From Gonapodya sp. JEL0774 (taxonomy: Eukaryota): a stretch of DNA of 64,000 bases. Below, piece after piece: positions 44,153-61,096 of this stretch. Both the position numbers and the translations under genes were made by a program. The stretch spans positions 1 through 64,000 of the forward strand of contig JADIIX010000044.1 of assembly GCA_027604505.1 (NCBI GenBank). The letters are read 5' to 3'. Positions within the stretch are counted from its first letter, which is position 1. Each line of letters opens with the position of its first letter. Below the pieces are notes generated by a model. The model was not told the DNA's origin and did not search any database. It saw only the letters and a program-made list of their open reading frames with translations.

Positions 44153-47100
44153 ATGTTCCCAGTGAGTCATCAATCGCGCATATATTCTTCTTAGTGACGG
44201 TTTAACGTGCCACAGGCGTTTGGTGCGAGCTTCCCACCTCACCAGCAACAACAGCAGCCGGGAAAGGTAGAACCGTTCAAGCATTACTTCTCACAGACCT
44301 CGCATGTATGAGAATCTCTTCTAACTCTGCAGGAGCCAAAGAGGAAAAGGAGTACGAAGGCATGTGACACCTGCCACAGGAAAAAGATCAGGTGCAATGG
44401 GGACCTGTGAGTAAACTGTGGATAAATGTCCTGCTGTAATGGTCACACAAGAGCGCAAGTCCTCATCTGTGGAATCAGCTGTGAAAGAACGACCTTCATG
44501 GAATGGACTATTGTGAGCAGATCGCTACTTCCTCCTGAGGATGATTGAGCAGATCGGAATGAGTGTGCGGCTATGTGGATCAGATGAGCGTGGAAGTGAG
44601 ATGGACGGACTGCCGCTCAGGGACTCGAAGCCTTTGCTATAATAGATGGCGTGGGGGAGATTCATTTTGTCGCAAGATCGTTGTGTTGTGCTTTCAAGGG
44701 TGCTCAAACGCTCGCTAATCAGTCCATTTCTTACTTCCAATCGAGTCCCTGCTCCAACTGCACGCACTCAAAGCAATCCTGCGCCTATACCCCGTCAGCG
44801 AAAAAGCGTGGTCCTCGCGTGGGGTACATTGAATCCCTCGAACGCCGCCTCTCGCAAATGGAAAACCTCCTCTCCACCCATGTCGGACCTCAATACCGCG
44901 ACCAACTTGCTTTAGCAGACGGAGACATGGATGGTGTCGATATGGGTGGAGCTGGAGACTACGGAGATGGTGATGATGGCAGGGCGAGTGTTGGAGACAC
45001 CACGAATATGAACGGGATGGGTGTTCCCAACATGCACAATTACTTGGATAGGATGGACGCGATGAGAGTCATGGGAAGCAACAATCCGCTCGGTGTGGAT
45101 GTTCCCCTCTCCATGCCAATGAGCCGCGTGGAAGACATGCAGACTCTGTCCAACGTGACCGCTGCTTCTGGCGTACAAAGTGGGCCAACAGGACCTGGAG
45201 GCGCCGAACCCTACGTATATGGCCCGTATCGGTTCCCTCATTTTATAACTCCTGGTGCGGGTAACTCACATAACCAGGAACCGATTGAATACTCTGACGC
45301 AGCATCTGAGTCCGCCACGGATCCACCTACAGAAGAGGAGGATGGCAATATCGGTGGAAGTGACGACGAGGTCATTCCTGCGCAGGCGAAGCGATTGCAA
45401 GGGAGGGCATCCGCGCCTGCTGTGGTTCGTACAGGGACCCAGAGTAGCGGTGGAGGGAACGGCAGAGGGAGTGGGAGAGGCGGACGCGGAAGGGGTAGGG
45501 GCCGGCCAAGAGGCTCAAGGGGGGGACGAGGTGCTTCGCAAGCGACTTCAGGAGAATATCCTCCAGAATCGGATGACATTCAGCGACGGATTCGGGTGAG
45601 GGGTGGTGGCCGGCTGGGTGGCATCATGCCACCGCAGATGAATGGGAGGAGCAGGGGAACCGGCGGACTGATTGTCGGAGAAGACGGTCAGCATTTCTCA
45701 GGAGGGAGTGCCCACGGGATAGGCGATGGTGCTTCTTCCTCTTCCGTTTCGTCCACTCCCCCAAATCCCAACTCGTCTGACTCAACTTGGCGTCCCCACG
45801 AAACTGCGGATGACATTGGAGGATACCCGTACACTTTCGGCAACCCGTCGTACAGTGGATTTCCTGTTCCTGTCCATCCACTCCCGATTCAACTCGGCGC
45901 AATTCCTCATTCCACTGTTGCATCTACACCACCGGACGGTCGAGAACCAAGTGTCACTTCAACCCACTCTGAGATGGGGAGCGGCTCTGTGCGTGTGGGC
46001 GGGAATGCCGGCTCCAGGAACTACGGGGCTGGGGGGACTGGTGCGCCCTCAATACAAGGGCTGGTGGATGCAGTAAGGTTGCAGTCTGGAATTGGAGTGG
46101 TTGGACATGGTGGCAATGGAGGCGGTATCCTTGGAGACGTTTCAGCTCAGATGCCACCAGTGGTTGTTCAGCCACAACCGGTGATTGAAGAAGAAGTGCA
46201 AGTGATCATGCCCTTGATCACGTTGTTTTTCAGTCATGTGTATCCGATTCTGCCGTTTGTACATAGGTGGGTGTTACTTTCCCTTGGGAGTAAGGGAATT
46301 GGCAGAGGGGTGTCCGAAGGAGACAACTCACGAAGAGGGTACTTGATCGGGAAGAAGATTCGTGCATTTGTTTGAGAGGACTCATCCCACCTCATAGGAA
46401 GTTAGATACCGTGTCGTTATCTCACAACGCACACGTACCCCTTCGTAGATCGTCCTTCTACGAGAAACTCATCCCCAAAAATCAACATCACCTCCTCCTC
46501 CTCAACTCCATTTACGCAGTATCCGCCCGATTTTCGTCCGATCCCACATTCATGCGAGATGTTCGCCGGCCCTATGAAGCTGGCGACGAGTTCTTCGCAA
46601 GAGCCCAGTCCATCCTTGCCACTTGCATGGACGTATCCACTGTGCCCACAACACAGGCGTTGTTGTTGTTGAGCTTACATGCTTTTGGGAGGGGCAAGTT
46701 CAGTCAGGGCTGGCTATATACCGGAATGGCGATCAGAATGGCGCAAGAGTTGAAGATGAATGTAGATTACGAAGATTTGCCGGGCTTGGATAAACAGGTG
46801 GGCTGGATTGAGAGAGAGACCAGGAGAAGGGTATGGTGGTCGTGCTTTGCATTGGTGAGTTAAATATTTGAGGGACCAACTATGCAATAGCTGGGCTCAT
46901 TATACCTCATACGGATCACGTGCCGTACAGGATCGTCAATCCGCCGCGGCCGCCGACCGCCCCTACACTATCGATGAACAGGATTGTCATCTCTCCTTGC
47001 CTTCGGACGAGACCATATGGGAACACACCAATCTATCTTTTCAGGACGATGATGGCTTGAATCTTTTTCAAAACTCTCGACTTCCCCGGATGCCATTTTT

Positions 47101-48724
47101 TAAAACTCTACCGTACCAGTTACCTGGCCCTAGCAGCCCACAATTGTCTCATTTTGCCCTCAACACAATCCTCGTGTATCTCTTCGGCAAGATACTTCGC
47201 CACATCAGCCAAAGCCACAAACCTTCTCGGCTTGCCCACCAGCCGTTCAGTCGCACTCCTATCACCATTGCTGCCGCCTCCCAGGGCCTGCCATCTTCAA
47301 GTCCGTCCCCTCAAGGTGTTGACCCTGAACTGGGTCTTCTGGACACCAGCTTAAGAAACTGGTACCGGGGCCTGCCGCCCGAACTAACTCATCCACACTT
47401 GTCGGGGCATTTGGAGAGCGTGTGGATTGGAGCATACTTGCAGATCTACTACCACGCGGCAATGATTGCGCTTCACCGGCCCAGTGCACATTACCCTCCC
47501 CAACCTTCAGGGTTGGACTACCCATATGGATCAGCACCACCGGGGGGGCCCAGAGTGCGTACGCCCGCTCCATTGCCTCTTGGAAAGGGATCTACCAGTG
47601 GCGGTGAAGCAGGAGATAACGGGGCCGCGCAAGGACACGTGTCAACGGATGAACGAGTGAATGGTGCAGTCGAGAATGATGGCAGGATAGACAAGAAGAG
47701 TGATGACCGCAAAACTCCGTCTTCCTCGCTTGGCGCAGGAAGTTTGAAGCAGCTACCCGTATGGCCCACGCCACTTTCGCGGGACATTTGTACCTCCTCC
47801 GCCGAGCGCGTGGCCAGAATAATTCAGGACTTCGTAGTACCGAATCCCTGGTTAAACCGATTCAATCCCTTTGCAGCGTATTGTATGTTCCACTCGGGAG
47901 TCGTTCATGTGATCAACATGCTGCACCCTTACGAAGTTGGTTCGGGTAGTGGTGCGTCTTCGTCCACTGGGTTGGGACTCGCGAACTTGGGGCTAGCGAC
48001 AAAGAAGCCAGAAGAACTTGTTGCATCCTCTAGGCAAAATCTGATCTCGCACATCATGGGACTCCGGCGGATGGGGAACTATTGGAGTTATGCCTTGAGG
48101 TATCTCGAAGCACTTGAGCAACTTCTCAGAGCAACTGGACTTCAAGATTGTATTCAGGACGCTAAAAATCAAGAAGAGGGGCATTTAGATGATTTGGAAG
48201 TGCAATCTGCCAAAGACGACGATGATGGGTGGGGCCGGGGCCTTCTGAACTACGGATTGGATGTCTTTGGCTTAAGTGTGGATGGAGGCAATCCAGCAAG
48301 TGCGTTTGCGTTCGCCCCGCCAACAATTGCACCCCTCGCCTTTGGGACATCGGCTCCGGTTTCGCGGCCGCGCTTGTCTTCCATCAGTCAATATGCTTTG
48401 CACCTTAACGGAGCTGGAGCTGGCCCCAGCGGGTTTCCATCAGTGGCTTCTACCACTTTCCCGGCGGCCAGTCTCTTTGGAGAGTCAAGTGTCTCTTCAC
48501 CAGTGCAGTCTGTCAGTGAGAAAGCCAATGGTGGGGAGGAGGTTTGGACTGAACGAGGTGGACAGGAGATGGAGCGTGATAATGGGGGAGCCCGTGAACC
48601 AGACCCCACCGATTCCACCAGGAGGCAGCTGCAGGAGCTCGCTTCGAGGTATCAGATGCAAATGCAGGAGCACGATAAACGCTCTCGCGATAATGTGAAG
48701 GAGGAACCAGCCGCAAACACGTGA
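44153..48724 (+). CDS. Zn(II)2Cys6 fungal transcription factor with Fungal_trans domain
   Basis: KACDTCHRKKIRCNGD|..PCSNCTHSKQSC..KKRGP; GWLYTGMAIRMAQEL...ERETRRRVWWSCF. Confidence 0.93.
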
Positions 48725-49966: not shown

Positions 49967-51489
49967 CTAATACTGTTCATTTTCGATGGGGCTGAACCCC
50001 TGCGTGGCCATATCTGTTGCGTAATTGTCTGATTTCATCGCAGGTTTGTCAGTTTGCGCTGAAGACTCCCACAAGAGACGGAAAAGATTGTTAATTAGAC
50101 AGAGTCCCACGACTGACATGCCGACTGAAAATACAGCAACTGAGTCAGCGTGCGTACACATAGTGAGACACAGTGAGAAAGCTGACTCACAAAACAGTGA
50201 GGCCATATCCAGTTGTGTGCCGATGGGAGGGATGCTGGGTGTGGCATTTCGTACGATGGGCATCGCAAAGAGCAGTCCCGGACCCATTGCTAACAACGGC
50301 CGATTGTTTAGGAAGTATTCTCACGAGGCACCATCGCAAAGCGCTTTACCCACCGAGAATAGGGAGGTCTAGCTTCCTGCCTTTGAAACGGATATCCACA
50401 GTGAGAAGTCCATAACCAAGAGAAAGTCCCCACTAGTGGTAATTTGATTTCAGGCGGATTTAGAGAGCAGTAGTACTCGGGACGTTCATTAACAGTGTGA
50501 CTTACGAAGATTGCAGACACTAAGAGAGCAAAGAGTTTGGTGGTTACACCACGAGTGATCTTGATAGCAACATTGTAGCTGAAGACCCCGGTTCGTTTGT
50601 CCGTGTCCAAGATCGACGCTTCTGCTTTGTAAGCGCCCGTAAACCCAACAACTTGGAATCCAAGTGGGATATAGCGACCTGGGGTTGCCGGTGGGAGACC
50701 GGTGAACGCATACACAACAGCGGTACCAGTGTGGACGTCAAAGGGGAAAGCGCTCGCTGTTGTTTATGAGAAATCAACATGGTTGTTGTTGGCACGACAA
50801 TGATAACGGACACGCACCATCGCCGTCATCGGAACTCATGGTTCCATCCACTCCAGGAGAAGTTGCGGTTAAATCGAACCTAAAAGTTTAAGAGGAGTTG
50901 CGGTCAGGTTTCGCTTTATGGTGAGGATTACATGTACGCACGTCTTGGAGGTATCGCCAGCAACGATTGTGACGTTGTTCAGGTTGTTGGCGTAGATTCC
51001 TGTTCCATCGAGCTGCAAAGAGACGGTTACGGTATGTACTCTTCGGGTGCGGGGCTGACTGTACTCACCGTGAGTCGGAAAGATATTTTCTCTGCGTTTG
51101 TATCCAAGCTCACCTTTAGGGGGGGTAGGAGGGCGCGTCAACTGATACTTCCCCTCCAAAAAAGTCCCTCTAAACTTGTCCCACTCACGAAGTGAGCAGA
51201 CACCACGATCCCATCGGCATAATTGTTCCCGTACGTTGTTATCACATCGTTTCCATTGGCATCAGTGCAAGGGGTGTTTGGGACACACTGCTTCTTGGGT
51301 TTCAGTTCGCTTTGCCCTTGCTTTATCGAAATGACGTTGAGAGCTACAACGATGGCGATGTAGAAGAGCCTGCGAATTGGAGTTCAAGAACTATTATATA
51401 GGATCGAGAGGATGAAGCAAGATAAGCAGCAACACCTACACCCAGCCGATTGGGAGGAGTCGCCTCCAGAGCGGTTGTTGAGATGACAT
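49967..51489 (-). CDS. DUF4436-like membrane protein, copy A (alpha type)
   Basis: MSSQQPLWRRLLPIGW, N-terminal TM, CVPNTPCTDANG, SAFPFD, IKITRGVTTKLF, LLFAMPIVRNATPSIPPIGTQLD, final TM. Family assignment is from motif recall. Confidence 0.8.
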
Positions 51490-51624
51490 GATGGTAGGGA
51501 AGTTGCGATGGGGATGGAAGAAGATAGGGAGGGATTTGAAGACGCAAGATGAGCGGGGGAAACTTGGATAGTTATAAGCAGAAATGTGCAGGATGATAAA
51601 ACAGAGTCTGTTCGCATTGGGAGG

Positions 51625-51899
51625 GAACAGTTTTGTAACTGTGGAGGATTTGTTAGGAGGGCAACTGTGGCAACTGTGGTCACAGATCAGGGATGGGCTG
51701 ACTGAGCAACCCCTGTACTGATATGAAACTGTTCTTGTGTTGTTGCTCCTTTCTGTTCCTTCTGTTCCTTCTGTTCCCGACCTCAGCCATCATGCCCCAA
51801 CTGATCCAAAGGGTTTCCCGTTCTGCTAAATCTGCCCTCTCTATAAGCTCTTTCCTTGTCAGAACAAGCTGTCCACTCTTTCTCTGGCATCCATTCTCA
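51625..51899. promoter_or_regulatory. Conserved block in divergent spacer, copy 1
   Basis: Non-coding DNA between head-to-head genes, alignable with 56199-56450. Contains ACAGTT-N4-AACTGT. Confidence 0.7.
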
Positions 51900-51925
51900 G
51901 TTCTCAACCAACTCTCTCCAGCTCG

Positions 51926-53239
51926 ATGGTTTCCCTCGATCCTTCAGTACCTCTCTGGAGAAGGTTGTTTGCCGTGGGATGGTTGTGAGTGTCCCCGATT
52001 CCTTGCTGCTCATTGCTCTTCCCTCTGAACCATCGTCGTCCGTTGCAGCCTCGTAATACTCATTGTCGCGGCCGTTGCCAACCTGTATTACAAAGTGGAC
52101 AGTGAATATCACTTCACTTCCCAACGGTGTACTTGAGATTGGGACTAACACTATCATTATTTCAGATATCGTCGTGCAGGCAAAAGGCCTCGCTCTTTGT
52201 GCCGACGATGCGGTTTGTGTGGATACAGCCGGGAATCCCGTCATAAACGGATAGTGAGTAGAGTTGACAGACGATGTTTCCCTTGTTGATCGCGCAAACA
52301 TGAAATACTTCCAATCACACAGCAACCGGACTTTTGCGGACGGGTTGATTGTGGCATCGAAATTTGCGGGGTTGAACGTTACAACATTGGGAGTTTCCTA
52401 CCGCATGACGGTTCAGGGTCTCGGCAAATATGCGAGCTTAGATGGTTTAACGGTTGTGGCGGGAGACACCACACTGAAACTCAACGGAACTTCGGCTTCG
52501 GTGGGGTTGGACGTTGTGGTTACTTCCAATGTGGAGGGTAGGTGTCAAATCGCTTCTGCTTGTTCCTCAGTCGTCTTGGCTAGACTGACGAGCTTCCCTT
52601 CTGTTAGCCACCTTCTTCCCCATGGATGAATACGGTGGCGCCATCCCCATATTTGCGTTTGAGGGCAACGTCACCCAACCAGGCGCCAAAATCCCAATCG
52701 GGTTCCTGTCTCTGACTGGCAAGGGTGCATTCACTGTGTACTCGACAATCGCGGAGACGTTGGCTGCTCCCAATTATTCATATGCCCTACTCTTTCTCGT
52801 CAAGCGGAGTGGGACCACCAAGTTCATCTCGTTCCTCTCCGCCGCCATTCAGGTATGTGCAGCTCAAGTGTCTGGACCTAATGCTGTTCCCTCATGACTC
52901 AAATTTTCATATTCGCGATTGGTCACACCGTGAATGTAGGGTCTTGCAACCCTTGGATACCTTTTGATCACAACTGATGTTCGATACAAGGGGCAGAGGT
53001 TGTATATTATGCTGATCTGTGAGTTGTCTCGGAACGGAACTTGTCTTGATTGATGCAGTCTTTTACTTACACCATCTCGGCTGACAGCGCTTGGGATACA
53101 ATTGCTGTTCGGGTTGCCAAACCTCAGCACTGCGCCACCAACGATGATCATCATTTCTCTTGTCGTAGTAGGCACTTGCGTCATTAACAACATGTTCCGC
53201 TACGTTTGGGAAATCCAACCGCCTGTTAAAAATGCTTGA
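51926..53239 (+). CDS. DUF4436-like membrane protein, copy B (beta type)
   Basis: MVSLDPSVPLWRRLFAVGW, CADDAVCVDTAG, FFPMDEY, LVKRSGTTKF, LLFGLPNLSTAPPT, ends WEIQPPVKNA*. Confidence 0.8.
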
Positions 53240-53412
53240 TCGACACACTTTGTATTTGAAATGTCACTTCTCAATACTATAATTGTCTCAAATTGTTGAT
53301 ATGAGCACAAGTTAGATGCAAATACAGCTAGTATGCTATCGCGAAGCAAGACTTGAATCACTGATGGTTTTCGCTCCGTTCCGAATCCCTTACGGTCCCA
53401 GGAAACTTGGAA

Positions 53413-53940
53413 TCACCTCGCGACAAATTTCCTTTTTCCATCTTTCTCATTGAATGAGTTCTCAAGACGTCTTTCCAGCACCGTGATGAACGTATCGTAG
53501 TGGATTAGCTTCGAGATGAAGCCCTCCATGGTTTCCCGATACGTTTGAACATCGTGCTTGGTAGTATTTGCGGTGAGAACGATAATCAGTGGTTGCGGAA
53601 ACTCCTGTGGGAAAGATCGTATAGCTTGTGCGGCTGTAATCAAGGGTGGACTCTAGATCACCAAGCGAATTTTAGTGGTGATGGCATGTCGGTGCCACTC
53701 ATGATAGGCCTCAAAAATATCACACCAAGGAAAGGTCAAATCTATGAAACAAATGTGATCGGAGGTTCGGGAATAAGTACGGAGGCCCGGAGTCGCTTCA
53801 CTCACGGATCGCCTTGTTCGAAAGCCGGAAGCGCTTTTCCCGTCGCTTCACGGCCGTCTGCAGCAGTTTCTGGCACAAGGAGGATCTTGGACAGAAATTC
53901 ACCACCATCTCTTGATTGATCGGTTTGTCCTCTAAAGATA
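53413..53940 (-). pseudogene. Degenerate response-regulator receiver fragment (hybrid histidine kinase type)
   Basis: LEDKPINQEMVV, a frameshift near 53898, then ETAADGREA, FDL and AIRS...PLIIVLTAN...MEGFISK. No kinase domain seen nearby. Confidence 0.7.
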
Positions 53941-54369
53941 CTCCGAGTGATGGGATATTATTGACCGGCATTCCCTGCTCCCCGTTCGCTGACCAACGAA
54001 TGATCTACCTGGTATCTTGGAGATTCAGATCCACACCGAAAAAGGCTGTGTTTGTCCGACACGCACGAAAAATGCTTCCAAGTGCTCCCTCTTTCCGAGA
54101 TTCAACGAACGACTGATGAACATCATCCCGTCTTTCGGTTCATTTAAACACTAATGGATCGAATTTGAATGGTCATTTGGCGATCATTCCAGGAGTAATG
54201 CTCGAAAATTAAACTCAAATTGCATATAAAATCGTGGTACTAAGTATACTAACAATACATTTATTCCTTCACCAGCACTTCGCGCTCTCACCCTCATCAT
54301 TATGTCCCCACAGTTCCGTTTCACTCTGCGCTCCGAACACCGTGTTAACTCTTAAACCCACGACACATC

Positions 54370-56091
54370 TTACCGCCTCTCTTGCTCATTCCAAAACCTC
54401 GAAGCGGCAGCGGTAGGATACTGAACAGGACGGTATCCTGGATTACCCATTTCGATGTACTCGGGTTTGGCTGGGGGAAGCGAGGGGCGGTTGGGAGGTT
54501 GTTGGTATGCGCTGGGGATGGGCAAGCTTGCGGGTGTTTGCTGGTGGATCACGGGAGGGATGTGATGAGTGGATGAGAATGCGAGTGCCGTGCCGCAACA
54601 AACAACATACAGGTTCAATCTCGTACAAGAAACGGAAAATGTTGACCACCACGCAAACCCCGATGACGGAAAGTGCAACTAAATGGGTCAAACGAGGAGT
54701 TTGCGGGATCAGGGCACTGGGTAGAAGTAAGAGAGAGTCACATTCAAGACTCACAGAACAGCCCTGCCATGTCTAACTGAATCCCAATCGCTGGAATTCC
54801 TGGAGCGGCATTGCGAAGGCCTGTTAAGGCGAAAAGGAGAGCAGGTCCGGCGGCTGTGCAGTTGCACGTAGAGCAGGAGAGAGAATTGAACACAGATCAG
54901 TAAGAGTCCCTCTTGCCTGATCGCACAAATTAGGTCACATACAGACGACAGTATACTCCAGCTTTTTCCCCTTAAAACGTATGTCCACCGTGAGGAACCC
55001 ATAAGCAAGAGCCAGACCCCACTGAGGGAAGCGAGAGAGGATTCAATTAGAATTATGTCCGCGCGAAAGTCTCAACTCAAGAAACCGACCTGGATCACTG
55101 CTGTAAACACTGCAAAGAACTTGGTAGTCGAACTCCTCGCCACGGCTGCTAACACGGTGTAGGCATAGATGCCTGTTCTGTTGTCGGTCCCAATGATGGT
55201 GGCCGCGGTCGTAAACGAGCCTGTGGTTCCAGTGTTTTGAAAGCCCATGGGGATGTATCGTCCAGGAGTGGGGGTGGTACCCTGGAACGCAAGAACCGTG
55301 GTGGTTCCGTAATGGAAGTCAAAGGGGTAGGAGCTCGCTAGGAGTTTTAGGTGAGAAACGACCGAAGACGATTCCCAATGCGAAAGATTTTCGACTCACC
55401 ATCTCCGTCTGTGGAGCCAAACACCGCATCGATACCGACAACCGGTGCTGTACCGTCTAGAGTGACGAAACTGTCTCCCGCAACGATCGAGATGCCACCC
55501 AGATTTTCGGAGTACTTTCCAATGCCTCCGACCTAAGAGAGAGTGTGTTGAGCAAGAGTGACTTTGCTTGCCGAACGAAAAAGACTCACTGTCAGGCGGT
55601 AAGTAATTTTCTCGGTCAGGGTGTCGAGAGAAATCTGAAATGGGTCAAGACGATAAGCTAACTTGTTGCGCAGCGCCCATGAATCTTCCAACTCACGAAA
55701 TGTGCTGAAACTACCAGACCATCTGTGAATGTGGCATTGTACGTGTTGATTACTATTGCTCCAGTAGAATCCACGCATGGGGTGTTATTGAGACAAAGTG
55801 CCGTGGGCTTGGACAGAGCGGCACCTGCTCGGATGAAGAGCAGTTTGCGGGAGAAGGAAGGTCGTTTGCTTCTCGTTCGGCGGAGAGAGCAGGGAAAACG
55901 AACGACAAGTACCTTGGTTCTTGTAGGAGATGTTTGAAATCGCAGCTGCGATAAGGAGAACAAGCCTTCGATGGGAAAGGATGATGGGTTGAGAGGGAAA
56001 CGAGCAATGAGCTACTGGTAATCGGGGAAAACACTTACAACCAGGCAAGAGGATAAAGTCTTCGCCATAAGGGGATTGCAGATGCTGCCAT
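54370..56091 (-). CDS. DUF4436-like membrane protein, copy C (alpha type)
   Basis: MAASAIPLWRRLYPLAW, CLNNTPCVDSTG, SSYPFD, AVARSSTTKFF, LLFALTGLRNAAPGIPAIGIQLD, and a Pro-rich tail. Confidence 0.8.
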
Positions 56092-56198
56092 GGTACGAAC
56101 TTGAAAAGCAGAGGGAGGCAAAATGAAAGACAATGGACTGCAAGTTCAGTAAGTTCCATTTTGAGATAATATGTAAGTAAACCCTGCAGTGCTGGGTT

Positions 56199-56450
56199 GA
56201 ACAGTTTTGTAACTGTGAAAGGGTTTGCGCAGGTGCAAGAGGAACAGCTGTGGGACCTCATGAGATCAGGGGGGGTGGGACAGCCAAACACCCTCAAGAC
56301 CTGTTCTTTGGTCGTTCTGTTCCCGGCTTCAGCCATCACCCCGAACTGATCCCAAGGGTTCCTTCTCTGGTAAACTTGCCCTGTCTGCCAGGTAAAAGCT
56401 CATTCCTTGTCAGAACCAGCCGTCCCCTCTTCCTCTTGCCTCCATTCTCA
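56199..56450. promoter_or_regulatory. Conserved block in divergent spacer, copy 2
   Basis: Alignable with 51625-51899 and shares the identical 19-mer GAACAGTTTTGTAACTGTG. Confidence 0.7.
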
Positions 56451-56567
56451 ATCACCCGTCTACCCATCTGCACTTCCTATATCCTCAATTCACAATCTAC
56501 CTCTTCCTCTCCACTTGCTTCTCGCCATCACATTTCCACTTCTTCTCCCCTAAACACCTCCAATCTA

Positions 56568-57899
56568 ATGGCTATCGCAAATGTACCTCTCTGGAGAAGA
56601 TTGTGGAGCGTAGGATGGCTGTGAGTACTCCTTTAGCACCATTTCCTCTGGGAGTCTTCCCCTCTCCAACCCATCTCCGAATCGACTACAGGGTGATCCT
56701 TCTTCTCGCGGCTATCGTTGCGAATCTCTTCTACAAGAAAGACAATCTTTCACTACAAAACAGAGGGAATGAACTTTGTGTTCAAGATGGGCTATGTTTA
56801 GATTCTAATGGGGCAGTCACGATCACTGGCTAGTGAGATTTCTCGAATCCCCGGTGTTCCAAGCATGTGCTTGTATTTAACCGGTATCTCCTCAGCAATA
56901 CTTCTTTCACCGATGCCTTAATTGTTTTCGTGAAATTCGCCGGTGTGGACACCAATGCGCTCAAAGTTTTCTATCGATTAACAGTGAGCTTCCTGCCTTT
57001 CTCCTCACCGAGCAATTTTCAACACATCTAAATTCTGTACCTTGCTCGTACAGGTGTGGGGAAACGGCAAATACGATACCAATTTAGGCAATGTGACATT
57101 CGTAGGTGGGGACACAACCGTCCAACTCACTCCGGGAATAGCACGCGTCGGAGTGGATGTAACCGCATCAGCCCTTAAATCTGGTAAGATCTTTCTTCAA
57201 CCCCATTCGATGCTCAGTGACTGATCTCTGATTGGTCTAGTGGCCGCCATCGCCCCCATGGATGAATACGTTTCTTCCTTCAGCATATTTGCCTTCGAGG
57301 GCACCCCGAGTGCGAAGGGTCGGTACATACCGATTGGCTACCAGTTCCAAGGGGGTAAAGGTGCTTGGAACGTCCTTATGGGGATCAGCGAAACACTTCC
57401 CGCGCCAAGCTACTCGTACACTTTGGATATGCTTGTTAAGAGAAGTGGAACAACCAAATTCGTGTCGATCCTTTCTGCGGTTGTTCAGGTGTGGTCAACT
57501 TGTTTAACGTTGGAAACCCCAATTGTATTTGACTCGTTCGGCTTTTAGGGCATGGTGACACTTGTGTACCTTCTCATAACCACAGGCTCCAAGAAAATTC
57601 ACATCGCAATGATCCGTACGTGAACATGCTGGCTTGAAATGGGGGTAATTTGTCATCCAACACGTTCCACTCTTGTGTGATAGACTTTGGAATCTTCCTG
57701 CTATTTGGTCTCCCAAGTTTGGGCACCTCCCCTGCAACCATGATTATCGGTGGGTTTTAAGTACAAAAATCTCAGAGTTTTTTGTCTTTCCTTACACTTC
57801 TCTCTTCTAATAGTGACCCTTGGAGTTATTGGACCATGCGTGATATTCAACATGTTCAAGTATGTCTATCAAATTTCTCCTCCTTCTCAACAGTCTTAG
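56568..57899 (+). CDS. DUF4436-like membrane protein, copy D (beta type)
   Basis: MAIANVPLWRRLWSVGW, CVQDGLCLDSNG, IAPMDEY, LVKRSGTTKF, LLFGLPSLGTSPAT, ends YQISPPSQQS*. Confidence 0.8.
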
Positions 57900-58541
57900 T
57901 CGCGCGTCAGGGGTAGTGTAATTATGAGAACGCTTTAATTCTGGTGTAATTCTGCCACATATTATTACTTGGAACTTTTATTTTCACTCCAGAACAGCTT
58001 TCCGAGGCGGAAAAAGCAGGAACTGAACTTGTGCACATGGACTTTCGTGCTAGGAGTCTGTGCTTGCATGTAATTCGAGTTTGAGCACTGTACATAAGAG
58101 AGCAAACGAGTGCATTTCGGGGCAGTTTCGAAACATCTCCTGGCACATCCTTTTTTTTGGCTTTTGTGGTTCATATAGTACCGAACTTCATCATCCACTT
58201 TCCCGCAGAACACCTGAAAGAAAACCAGGCTCACAGCGCCAGGTAGCAATTTAGAACGTAAATGTGCGTCGACTATCCGTTGCTCTCGGCTTCAATTGCT
58301 CGAATCGAAAGCATTTGCAAACACACTTCCGGTTTCTCCACCCTTCTGTCTACCGCTCTGTTCTCTTCTGTAACTCGGATCGTCATTTGATCACATCTGA
58401 TAATTGTCTCACTAGCTCCCGTTTTGCTCCACTGGTGTAGTTGCTCTCCACCCAACTGGTACCACGCATTCGCCACTCTTTCCGCAGAACTCAAACAGAA
58501 GCTTATCTCCCCATTCTTGTGGAGCAGAATTCGCGCTGAAT

Positions 58542-61096
58542 ATGCAAGAGACTGGCGTCGCCCCTCCGCCACTCCCGGCTAATTCAGCCGAGCCCGATTT
58601 CAATGCAGACGCGTTTCTCTCGAACATTCTCGCTTCAGCCAAGACATACGAGCAGCACTCTGTTCCGATGAACAATTCCATCAACGAAGGCAATGGAAAC
58701 TCGAATTCTTCGGCCACACAGAATGGAATGCGCATTGCTCCAGCGCTGAAAACAGTAGAGGCGGAGAACCCCTCTCAGAAAATACAAAACCAAAACCCGG
58801 GTTCAAAATCAATATCATCGTCTGAACCTATTGGCGAGCGTGCATTGAACGGGGCGCTCGAGGCGTCTAGAAATCTTAAACAGGAAAATGACCCAGAAAG
58901 GCTCTCCTCTCACACCGACCCTTTGGTAAAGCCCGACCCAGATGCGGAAGATTCTGGCGCAGGTGGTCCTTCTTCGCGGCGAGCTCGTCAGCGCTCTTCA
59001 GGGAAATCCGGAAAACAGCAGCAGTCTTCTCAGAACCAGCAGTACCAACACAGTCAAGGTCAGAAGCCGGCTCGCGCAGGTGGGGAACGAAAGCAGCGCG
59101 ACCACGCTCCAGCCGGGGGATCAGCGCCAAAGCAGATTTGTCAGTACTTCGCAAAAGGGACCTGTGCGAAGGGTCCAGAGTGTGCTTTCTCTCACGACTC
59201 GGCCACGGCAGAAGAGCTTCGCAAAAAGCACGAAGCTGAGGAGAAGGAAAAATTGTCCGGTAGTTGCAAGTACTTCAGATCGGGGAAGTGTGAGAAAGGC
59301 GCTAGTTGTCCCTTTTCTCACGATCTGAGTCGGGAACCGTGCAAGGTCAGTTCTCCACGGAACACGGACCTTATCTTGTTGTCCATTGTTTACCCCAGAT
59401 TCCGTGTGCTGATGTCTAAATCCTCCATTTCTTCTTTTGTGGAAGTTCTATCATTGGTTCAACAAGTGTAACAACCCACGCTGTCGATATTCGCATGACC
59501 CTTTGACTGAAGACGAACGGAGAGGCGCGGAAATACAAATGATGAAAACTTTGAAGACACAGGTGGGATCAAGTTCATTGATTTTTCCGAATGATTTCTT
59601 TGACAGAATTCCTTTGTTTCATAAAACTACCCCCACAGCCTTGCAAGTTTTTTCACCTATGGAATTCGTGCAAATTTATTAACAATCCTGAAAAATGCCC
59701 CTTCAGTCATGAACCACTGACGGATGAAACTAGGGCAAAACTCAGAGCGGACGACCTCGAGGAACGCCAGAAAGAGCAAGCTCTCAAGGAGGACAAAGTT
59801 CGGGATCGGCACTGGAAACGTGACGCCAGTCCTTCTGGGCACGGTACTTCGAAGGGAAGGGACGGTGTACGGTCACCGAAACGAGAGCGAGAACGAAGCG
59901 AGCCAACAACCCGAAACGTAAGCAGAGAGAGGGAGAGGGACAGAGAGAGAGATCGGGATCGGGAGCGGGACAGGGAAGGGTGGGTCGGCGCAAAGCGGAG
60001 TCGTCGGAGCAGTCCCAGCCCTCCATACAGGGGATCTCGGCCAGGAAGTCCCACTCTGAGGTCTCGACCGGGTAGCCCTTATCGCGTCTCGAGGCCAGGC
60101 AGTCCTGTCTATCGTGGATCACGACCTGGTAGCCCTTATCGCATGTCGCGCCCACCCAGTCCCCACGGCTTTCGAGGTTCACGCCCCGGCAGTCCATACC
60201 CTCCGTCGCGATCCCGTCCACTGTCTCCTTCTGGCCCTCCTCGAAGTCGCAGCCGAAGTAGAGACAGGATCCGGCGAATAATGGGCGAAGAGACCCGTTA
60301 CCGGGACGAATTGGCAAGGTCCAGGAGGCCATCATGGTCTCCTCCGGGGAAGTCGAGATCGCGATCTCCAGGTGGCGGTCGGAGACCGATTGCTCGGTAT
60401 GAATATGAAGACTTGACTAGAGGCCGAGGAGATCCGATATCTCGTGGCCCAAGTAGACCGATTTCTCGAAGGAGTTCTGGCCGGAAGAGTTCCAACGTAT
60501 CACCAAGCAGAGATCCTCTACGAGATTGGGATCGCGGAGCTGAGAGAGGTGGTGATCGAGGTAGCTCGCTGTTGGACCGGGGTGGAATTTATGTCAAGGA
60601 GCGTAACGGATCCTTACCTGGCAGCCTGGGCAACTCCCCCACGCATGCGAATCCGTCCCAACAACAGTCCGGTAACGTGTCTCCCAAACCCCCACAGCAA
60701 GCGCCCAACTTGTTCATGGCTCCACCCAACATGCTACCTAACCAGCAGTTCATGGCTTTCATACAGGGACCGAACGGTTCAATGAGTGCGGTGCCGGTAG
60801 CAATACTGGGACCTCCTGGAATGCAATTAGCTGGCCAACCTGGACATTCTTTGCAAGGCGGCACGGTCGCTGGGTTCACACAAGGTGCAGCGTTGCCTCA
60901 ATTCACCCAAGCCGCGGGAATGCAGTTCCCACAAGGCCTGATATTGGCACCAGGCATGGGTATTCCGTTAGGTGGTTTTCCAGGAGTGACAGCGTCTGGG
61001 TCCTCATTCCCTGTGATGGCTCCTGTCGGTGGCCTGGCAATTCAAGAGACTGTTGGTGAAACTGTTTCCTCAAAATCGCATGAAAATCAATTCTAA
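58542..61096 (+). CDS. CCCH zinc-finger protein with RS/RD-rich region (ZC3H4/6/8-like)
   Basis: Four CCCH fingers across exons, two ending FSHEPLTDE / YSHDPLTED, followed by RE/RD and RS-rich repeats. Confidence 0.85.

What the first reader, a model, noticed from the sequence alone, without database searches (positions are those of the whole stretch)
49967..57899. Four fungal membrane proteins with pentameric ligand-gated channel hallmarks in a permuted topology
Seen: each paralogue has an N-terminal TM, a beta-strand-like ectodomain with FPFD/YPFD (A, C) or PMD (B, D), a conserved Arg just before the first of three C-terminal hydrophobic helices (KITR, AVAR, LVKR), and in A/C a loop RNATPSIPPIGTQLD / RNAAPGIPAIGIQLD. 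Known: pLGICs have a [F/Y]PxD Pro-loop, a pre-M1 Arg and an M2-M3 loop such as GABA-A RNSLPKVAYATAMD, and are generally considered absent from fungi. Inference: these DUF4436-like proteins are divergent pLGIC relatives in which an N-terminal helix replaces M4, possibly chemosensory channels.
Basis: partly seen in the sequence, partly recalled or inferred. Interest (0 to 1): 0.9.

Follow-up and report, generated by a model that had tools for sequence, protein, structure and literature searches.

The report
Fungal permuted neurotransmitter-channel relatives, paired
Four intact genes of an unstudied membrane-protein family (DUF4436), sitting as two head-to-head pairs in a chytrid-type fungus, encode proteins predicted to fold like subunits of nicotinic/GABA-receptor ion channels, a class reported missing from fungi, and they likely form ligand-gated channels, although no channel or oligomer was tested.

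Summary
Four intact spliced paralogues lie at 49967-57899 as two duplicated head-to-head pairs, A/B and C/D. A and C match DUF4436; B and D are their divergent paralogues. [quoted passage not shown] Differences: no C-terminal M4, an N-terminal helix instead, no M1 proline, a shorter ectodomain. Fold similarity is moderate (TM about 0.4; Z about 10). Oligomer, pore and the N-helix position were not tested. B and D form a derived clade lacking 11 residues of the M2-M3 loop, also present in Gonapodya prolifera; they are likely partner subunits. This scan already reached the DUF4436-pLGIC reading on four other genomes; my paper searches found no publication of it.

The parts
49967..51489 (-). Gene A, canonical DUF4436 subunit, 331 aa, 9 exons (stored protein P0001)
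50737..50748 (-). Pro-loop-like FPFD of A (residues 140-143)
   Evidence: position from exon map; column conservation
50551..50553 (-). Pre-M1-like Arg205 of A
50207..50251 (-). M2-M3 loop motif of A (residues 260-274), absent from B and D
51490..51925 (.). A/B divergent intergenic region; 51753-51899 is 78% identical over 154 columns to 56301-56450, and 51625-51643 is a perfect 19-nt match to 56199-56217
51926..53239 (+). Gene B, loop-less paralogue, 296 aa, 7 exons; no stored protein found for it
54370..56091 (-). Gene C, canonical DUF4436 subunit, 358 aa, 10 exons (stored protein P0004)
56092..56567 (.). C/D divergent intergenic region, duplicate of the A/B region
56568..57899 (+). Gene D, loop-less paralogue, 292 aa, 8 exons (stored protein P0156)

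Best explanation
The four genes encode DUF4436 membrane proteins that are predicted to be distant relatives of pentameric ligand-gated ion channel subunits and likely assemble into a ring-shaped, ligand-gated channel, with the N-terminal helix likely standing in for the missing fourth helix. Inferred working: the N-terminal helix anchors the chain with its start in the cytosol and threads a beta-sandwich to the outside or lumen. Helices M1-M3 then cross the membrane, leaving the C-terminus inside, so the N-terminal helix runs in the same direction as M4 (a circular permutation). M2 from each subunit would line the pore, with small residues on one face and Phe254 as a hydrophobic gate. A small-molecule or pH signal at the ectodomain would be passed through the conserved Pro-loop/pre-M1 Arg/M2-M3 loop cluster. 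A and C keep this whole cluster and would be the gating subunits. B and D, divergently transcribed from the same conserved intergenic DNA, have lost the M2-M3 loop and would be co-expressed accessory subunits. Shown: genes, motifs, conservation, sequence-profile match. Predicted: fold. Inferred and untested: oligomer, pore, ligand, N-helix position, heteromer.
For: Profile of 126 homologues against 177,635 PDB sequences: 2 of 5 listed hits are significant, both octopus CRT1 (E 2.5e-4, 3e-4), aligned from the YPFD loop through the pre-M1 Arg into M1. Model of A: pLDDT 89.6, pTM 0.81, strands 42-205 then three helices. All listed Foldseek hits to rank 50 are pLGICs, best E 8.6e-8, prob 1.0. VIA-align best Z 10.4, 224 residues, rmsd 5.8 with muscle nAChR. 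In the Foldseek-independent search of 48,161 chains, the 17 of the top 50 rows that align over 200 residues are all pLGICs. Columns F/Y140 99%, P141 100%, D143 90%, aromatic 179 88%, R205 97%, P264 98% fit six of the seven positions in Table 1 of PMC4795631 at similar spacing (P to R 64 residues against 72-75; R to loop P 59 against 55-57). Column entropy rises from M2 (1.65 bits) through M1 and M3 (2.2) to the N-helix (3.0), as expected for inner to outer rings. A shallow model of the G. prolifera B/D-type protein P0008 also hits only pLGICs (best E 2.9e-7). G. prolifera has four consecutive accessions with two canonical and two loop-less proteins.
Against: TM-scores are only 0.30-0.42 and rmsd 5-12. 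In the wide search the pLGIC Z-scores (8.6-9.7) are tied with unrelated three-helix bundles (up to 9.4), so Z alone does not single them out. A alone finds no pLGIC by sequence, and none of the 25 Pfam families listed for the 126 members is a pLGIC family. The M1 proline is absent, M2 carries a 90% conserved proline at 257, and the matched ectodomain (about 64-205) is some 50 residues shorter than GLIC's. Structural alignments start at residue 64 or later, so they say nothing on the N-helix, and its high entropy may reflect poor alignment. M2 size periodicity is weak (168 of 5000 shuffles, one of 12 tests). The P0008 model is poor in M2-M3 (pLDDT under 50 at 229-260).
Confidence: 0.62

Rival explanations
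1. True pLGIC homologues that no longer conduct ions: the ectodomain binds a ligand and the three-helix bundle signals or scaffolds as a monomer, dimer or closed oligomer.
For: M4 and the M1 proline are missing, the ectodomain is short and M2 has a proline; B and D persist without the coupling loop.
Against: The most conserved residues are the ectodomain-to-membrane coupling cluster and M2 itself, the pattern that PMC4795631 ties to gating.
Confidence: 0.2
2. A channel of three-helix subunits in which the N-terminal helix is only a signal anchor or signal peptide and does not occupy the M4 site, so there is loss of M4 and no permutation.
For: The N-helix is the least conserved helix, is absent from all structural alignments, and looks by eye like a cleavable signal peptide in P0005. 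Long M4 truncations are tolerated in some nAChR subunits (PMC9260303 passages).
Against: In A it is a long predicted helix (7-39) with mean hydropathy 2.4 over 19 residues and the same membrane direction as M4; in GLIC and GlyR the M4-M1/M3 interface is needed for folding.
Confidence: 0.3
3. B and D are not channel subunits but independent or relaxed duplicates, and the head-to-head layout is only a by-product of tandem duplication.
For: They lost W221, R260, N261, P267, G270 and D274 and sit on a long branch (0.91); relatives were found only in Gonapodya (3 proteins).
Against: Frames are intact in two species at 51-61% identity, and P141, D143, R205, F254 and P257 are kept in all four loop-less proteins. 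The non-coding DNA in front of B and D is 78% identical although the proteins are 52% identical.
Confidence: 0.35
4. Convergence: a generic beta-sandwich followed by a three-helix bundle resembles pLGICs by chance.
For: Identity 7-16%, rmsd 5-12, Z tied with helix bundles.
Against: Independent sequence-profile hit to a pLGIC at E 2.5e-4; both domains match in order; family-invariant residues coincide with the pLGIC signature.
Confidence: 0.06

Closest known systems
Cys-less pLGICs / Pro-loop receptors (GLIC, ELIC, sTeLIC, DeCLIC; PF02931 + PF02932)
   Same: Beta-sandwich followed by M1-M3 (GLIC 6hja Z 9.0, 221 aligned, rmsd 6.8; sTeLIC Z 8.7; DeCLIC Z 8.6); F/YPxD, pre-M1 Arg, M2-M3 proline; no Cys-loop disulfide.
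   Different: No C-terminal M4, an N-terminal membrane helix, no M1 proline, shorter ectodomain, a family-specific RN..P..P.IG...D loop, a proline in M2; oligomer and gating unknown.
Metazoan Cys-loop receptors (nAChR, GABA-A, GlyR, ZAC, cephalopod CRT1/CRB1)
   Same: Best sequence-profile hit (CRT1) and best structural hits; several paralogous subunits per genome.
   Different: 7-16% identity, no Cys-loop cysteines, no M4, found in fungi and bacteria.
DUF4436 (PF14494)
   Same: A matches above the curated cut-off (56.5 against 23.2 bits); C carries the family in the precomputed table.
   Different: D and the G. prolifera loop-less proteins have no precomputed Pfam hit and lack the family's most conserved loop; the head-to-head pairing was seen only in this window.

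Membership tests
DUF4436 (PF14494) | Score above the Pfam gathering cut-off | tested here: met
   A 56.5 bits against 23.2; 124 of 126 aligned homologues match at E up to 0.1. Whole B and D were not scanned; single exons gave no DUF4436 hit.
pLGIC / Pro-loop receptors | [F/Y]PxD Pro-loop with invariant proline | tested here: met
   P141 in 126 of 126, D 90%, F/Y 99%; aligned to YPFD of CRT1. D has Ala in place of the aromatic.
pLGIC / Pro-loop receptors | Pre-M1 arginine | tested here: met
   R205 97%, present in A-D, aligned to the CRT1 Arg before M1. The salt bridge itself was not measured.
pLGIC / Pro-loop receptors | Beta-sandwich ectodomain directly followed by M1-M3 | tested here: met
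   Predicted model matches over residues 64-311; moderate similarity, prediction only.
pLGIC / Pro-loop receptors | Beta-9 core aromatic | tested here: inconclusive
   Position 179 is F/Y/W in 88% after a Gly, like the GW of GLIC printed, but the CRT1 alignment places it two residues from the Trp.
pLGIC / Pro-loop receptors | M1 kink proline (77% of pLGICs) | tested here: not met
   No proline among the four commonest residues of any column 206-237.
pLGIC / Pro-loop receptors | M2-M3 loop proline | tested here: met
   P264 98% and P267 97% in the family and in A and C; the loop is 11 residues shorter in B and D. Which proline is the equivalent one is uncertain.
pLGIC / Pro-loop receptors | Four membrane helices after the ectodomain (M4 last) | tested here: not met
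   1 of 126 has a hydrophobic peak after the third helix; 103 of 126 have one before the ectodomain.
pLGIC / Pro-loop receptors | Pentamer with M2-lined central pore | not tested
pLGIC / Pro-loop receptors | Ligand- or pH-gated ion conduction | not testable with these tools
   Needs electrophysiology.

The most novel reading that the evidence does not exclude
DUF4436 is a circularly permuted branch of the pLGIC superfamily that gives fungi, from chytrids to mushrooms, neurotransmitter-receptor-type ligand-gated channels. Gonapodya has independently evolved heteromeric receptors: each gating subunit is co-transcribed from a shared bidirectional promoter with a dedicated accessory subunit that has deleted the M2-M3 coupling loop.
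Probability: 0.3. Interest if true: 0.9.

Novelty: new variant of a known kind. Interest (0 to 1): 0.76.

Why it matters
The survey of PMC4795631 detected no pLGICs in fungi and called metazoans the only multicellular holders. A fungal and bacterial branch with a rearranged helix order would revise that distribution, give a function to an unstudied family of at least several hundred clusters (747 representatives at E up to 0.001), and offer a natural test of whether M4 must follow M3 and of what the M2-M3 loop does, since B and D lack it. It would also supply candidate fast chemosensors for zoospore-forming fungi (inference).

Tried and rejected
No whole genome is held for the window. No RNA holder was listed. 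A alone against PDB sequences gave only GPR6 at E 0.33-1.2, rejected as chance. A deeper pLGIC alignment could not be gathered (1 of 301 genomes; 6 close loci; no plasmid match). ESM Atlas gave DUF4436 clusters and, with those left out, only two unnamed clusters at 0.80 and 0.79. Bacterial neighbourhoods (L001, L012, L013) shared no context. Helical-moment tests were mostly null (2 of 12 under p 0.05 uncorrected). The conserved intergenic block was considered as an upstream coding exon and rejected, as it is not in frame with B and has no Met in frame with D. With P0012 as guide the spliced models of B and D differed at some introns and scored lower; P0012 looks mis-spliced.
Full report
Observation. 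The stretch holds four spliced genes. Stored proteins P0001 and P0004 map exon by exon to A (minus, 51489-49967) and C (minus, 56091-54370). An automated spliced alignment guided by the G. prolifera protein P0008 gives intact models for B (plus, 51926-53239) and D (plus, 56568-57899) with GT-AG introns of 57-87 nt. As controls, the same method recovered 7 of 8 introns of A (it missed the first exon) and all 9 of C plus one spurious tail intron. The D model reads the same as stored P0156; B has no stored match. The stored proteins carry the source label Gonapodya sp., a chytrid-type fungus (my knowledge). A profile search of the whole window listed 15 segment hits, all within these four genes.

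Family. A matches DUF4436 above the cut-off. A search of 1.84 billion representatives gave 747 hits at E up to 0.001 and 199 at 1e-10. I aligned 126 of the 153 proteins then stored, dropping 27 outside 240-460 aa; the set is biased towards relatives of A. Of 30 proteins looked up, the named ones come from Gonapodya, Hyaloraphidium, Siphonaria, Chytridiales, Lobulomycetales, Quaeritorhiza, Globomyces, Synchytrium, Paraphysoderma, Umbelopsis, Neoconidiobolus and bacteria. Atlas clusters add Basidiomycota and Pseudomonadota, and 5 actinomycete plasmid records match.

Kinship with pLGICs. The only invariant column is P141; D143, R205, W221, F254, A255, R260, P264, P267, G270 and D274 are at least 90% conserved. 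PMC4795631 Table 1 lists F/Y-P-x-D, a beta-9 aromatic, the pre-M1 Arg, an M1 Pro and an M2-M3 Pro as the pLGIC core; six of these seven positions have a candidate at similar spacing and the M1 Pro has none. The profile finds the octopus receptor CRT1 as its only significant PDB hits (E 2.5e-4 and 3e-4; three other rows at E 0.087-3.1 are unrelated). The model of A is confident. Every listed Foldseek hit is a pLGIC, and VIA-align gives Z 10.4 over 224 residues at rmsd 5.8. In the wide search all 17 of the top 50 rows that span both domains are pLGICs, while the other 33 match only the helix bundle at similar Z. Similarity is moderate (TM 0.30-0.42). I put homology at about 0.9.

Topology. 103 of 126 members have a hydrophobic peak before the first strand and 1 of 126 has one after the last helix. 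Basic residues before the N-helix and in the M1-M2 loop, and glycosylation sequons in the ectodomain of A, C and D, fit N-in, ectodomain-out, C-in. The N-helix then crosses the membrane in the direction of M4 (inference). Whether it packs where M4 packs was not tested, since the structural alignments begin at residue 64. Passages of PMC9260303 show M4 is partly dispensable in some nAChR subunits yet needed for folding in GLIC and GlyR, so both replacement and plain loss stay open.

Pore. M2 is the most conserved helix. Small residues at 247, 250, 251, 255 and 258 share a face with F254, but the periodicity is weak after allowing for 12 tests. No oligomer could be modelled. Channel function is an inference from homology, about 0.6.

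What is particular here. A/B and C/D are head-to-head pairs repeated at about 4.55-4.64 kb. The intergenic DNA is 78% identical over 154 columns (E 1e-30), while A and C are 48% and B and D 52% identical as proteins. B, D and two G. prolifera proteins form one clade (100/100) inside the Gonapodya group (100/100), all four with 27 residues in place of 38 between the A254 and A292 columns, losing W221, R260, N261, P267, G270 and D274 but keeping P141, D143, R205, F254 and P257 (25-row tree). In G. prolifera the four accessions are consecutive in the order canonical, loop-less, loop-less, canonical, compatible with two pairs; orientation is unknown. The loop-less type was found only in Gonapodya (3 proteins; a word-based search of limited reach). 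A heteromer of gating and accessory subunits is the likeliest reading but is untested (about 0.45).

Prior art. PMC4795631 (passages and sections 5 and 7 read) reports no pLGICs in fungi. 'DUF4436' occurs in 1 paper, as a table label (PMC6616650, one passage). 'PF14494', 'IPR027948' or 'DUF 4436': 0; pLGIC + remote homolog + Foldseek: 0; pLGIC + lacking M4: 0. Searches listed 20, 3, 4 and 13 papers, none on this family by title or start of abstract. Subscription journals, structure-classification databases and all supplements were not seen and could hold a prior link. Four earlier AI notes of this scan reach the same DUF4436 reading on other genomes; I looked them up after my own profile and Foldseek results and do not count them as support.

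Verdict. A real feature and a likely permuted, M4-less branch of the pLGIC superfamily. It is not filed as a canonical member because the four-helix order and the M1 proline are not met and the pentamer is untested. New variant of a known kind; interest 0.76.

Noticed in passing
window 51926-53239: Gene B appears to be missing from the public annotation: the locus tags of A, C and D are consecutive although B has an intact seven-exon frame.
   Followed up: partly
window 51625-51734 and 56199-56323: The shared intergenic DNA has a perfect 19-nt match between the pairs, an imperfect inverted repeat of it in A/B, and three tandem TGTTCC-type units in A/B against one in C/D; candidate transcription-factor sites.
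   Followed up: partly
stored protein P0009 (Siphonaria, 631 aa): Two DUF4436 units in tandem, with the second unit's N-terminal helix directly after the first unit's M3, the position of M4. It may be a fused annotation of two genes, but it is the arrangement expected of a permutation intermediate.
   Followed up: no
window 46859-48724 (+): Long frame with a weak fungal transcription-factor domain hit (PF04082, E 0.0077, below cut-off).
   Followed up: no
window 58416-61096 (+): CCCH zinc-finger protein with an Arg/Ser-rich region.
   Followed up: no
L003 1090-3251 (-): A GLIC-like bacterial pLGIC gene overlaps by four bases an upstream gene for a predicted membrane-anchored sensor-like protein.
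   Followed up: no
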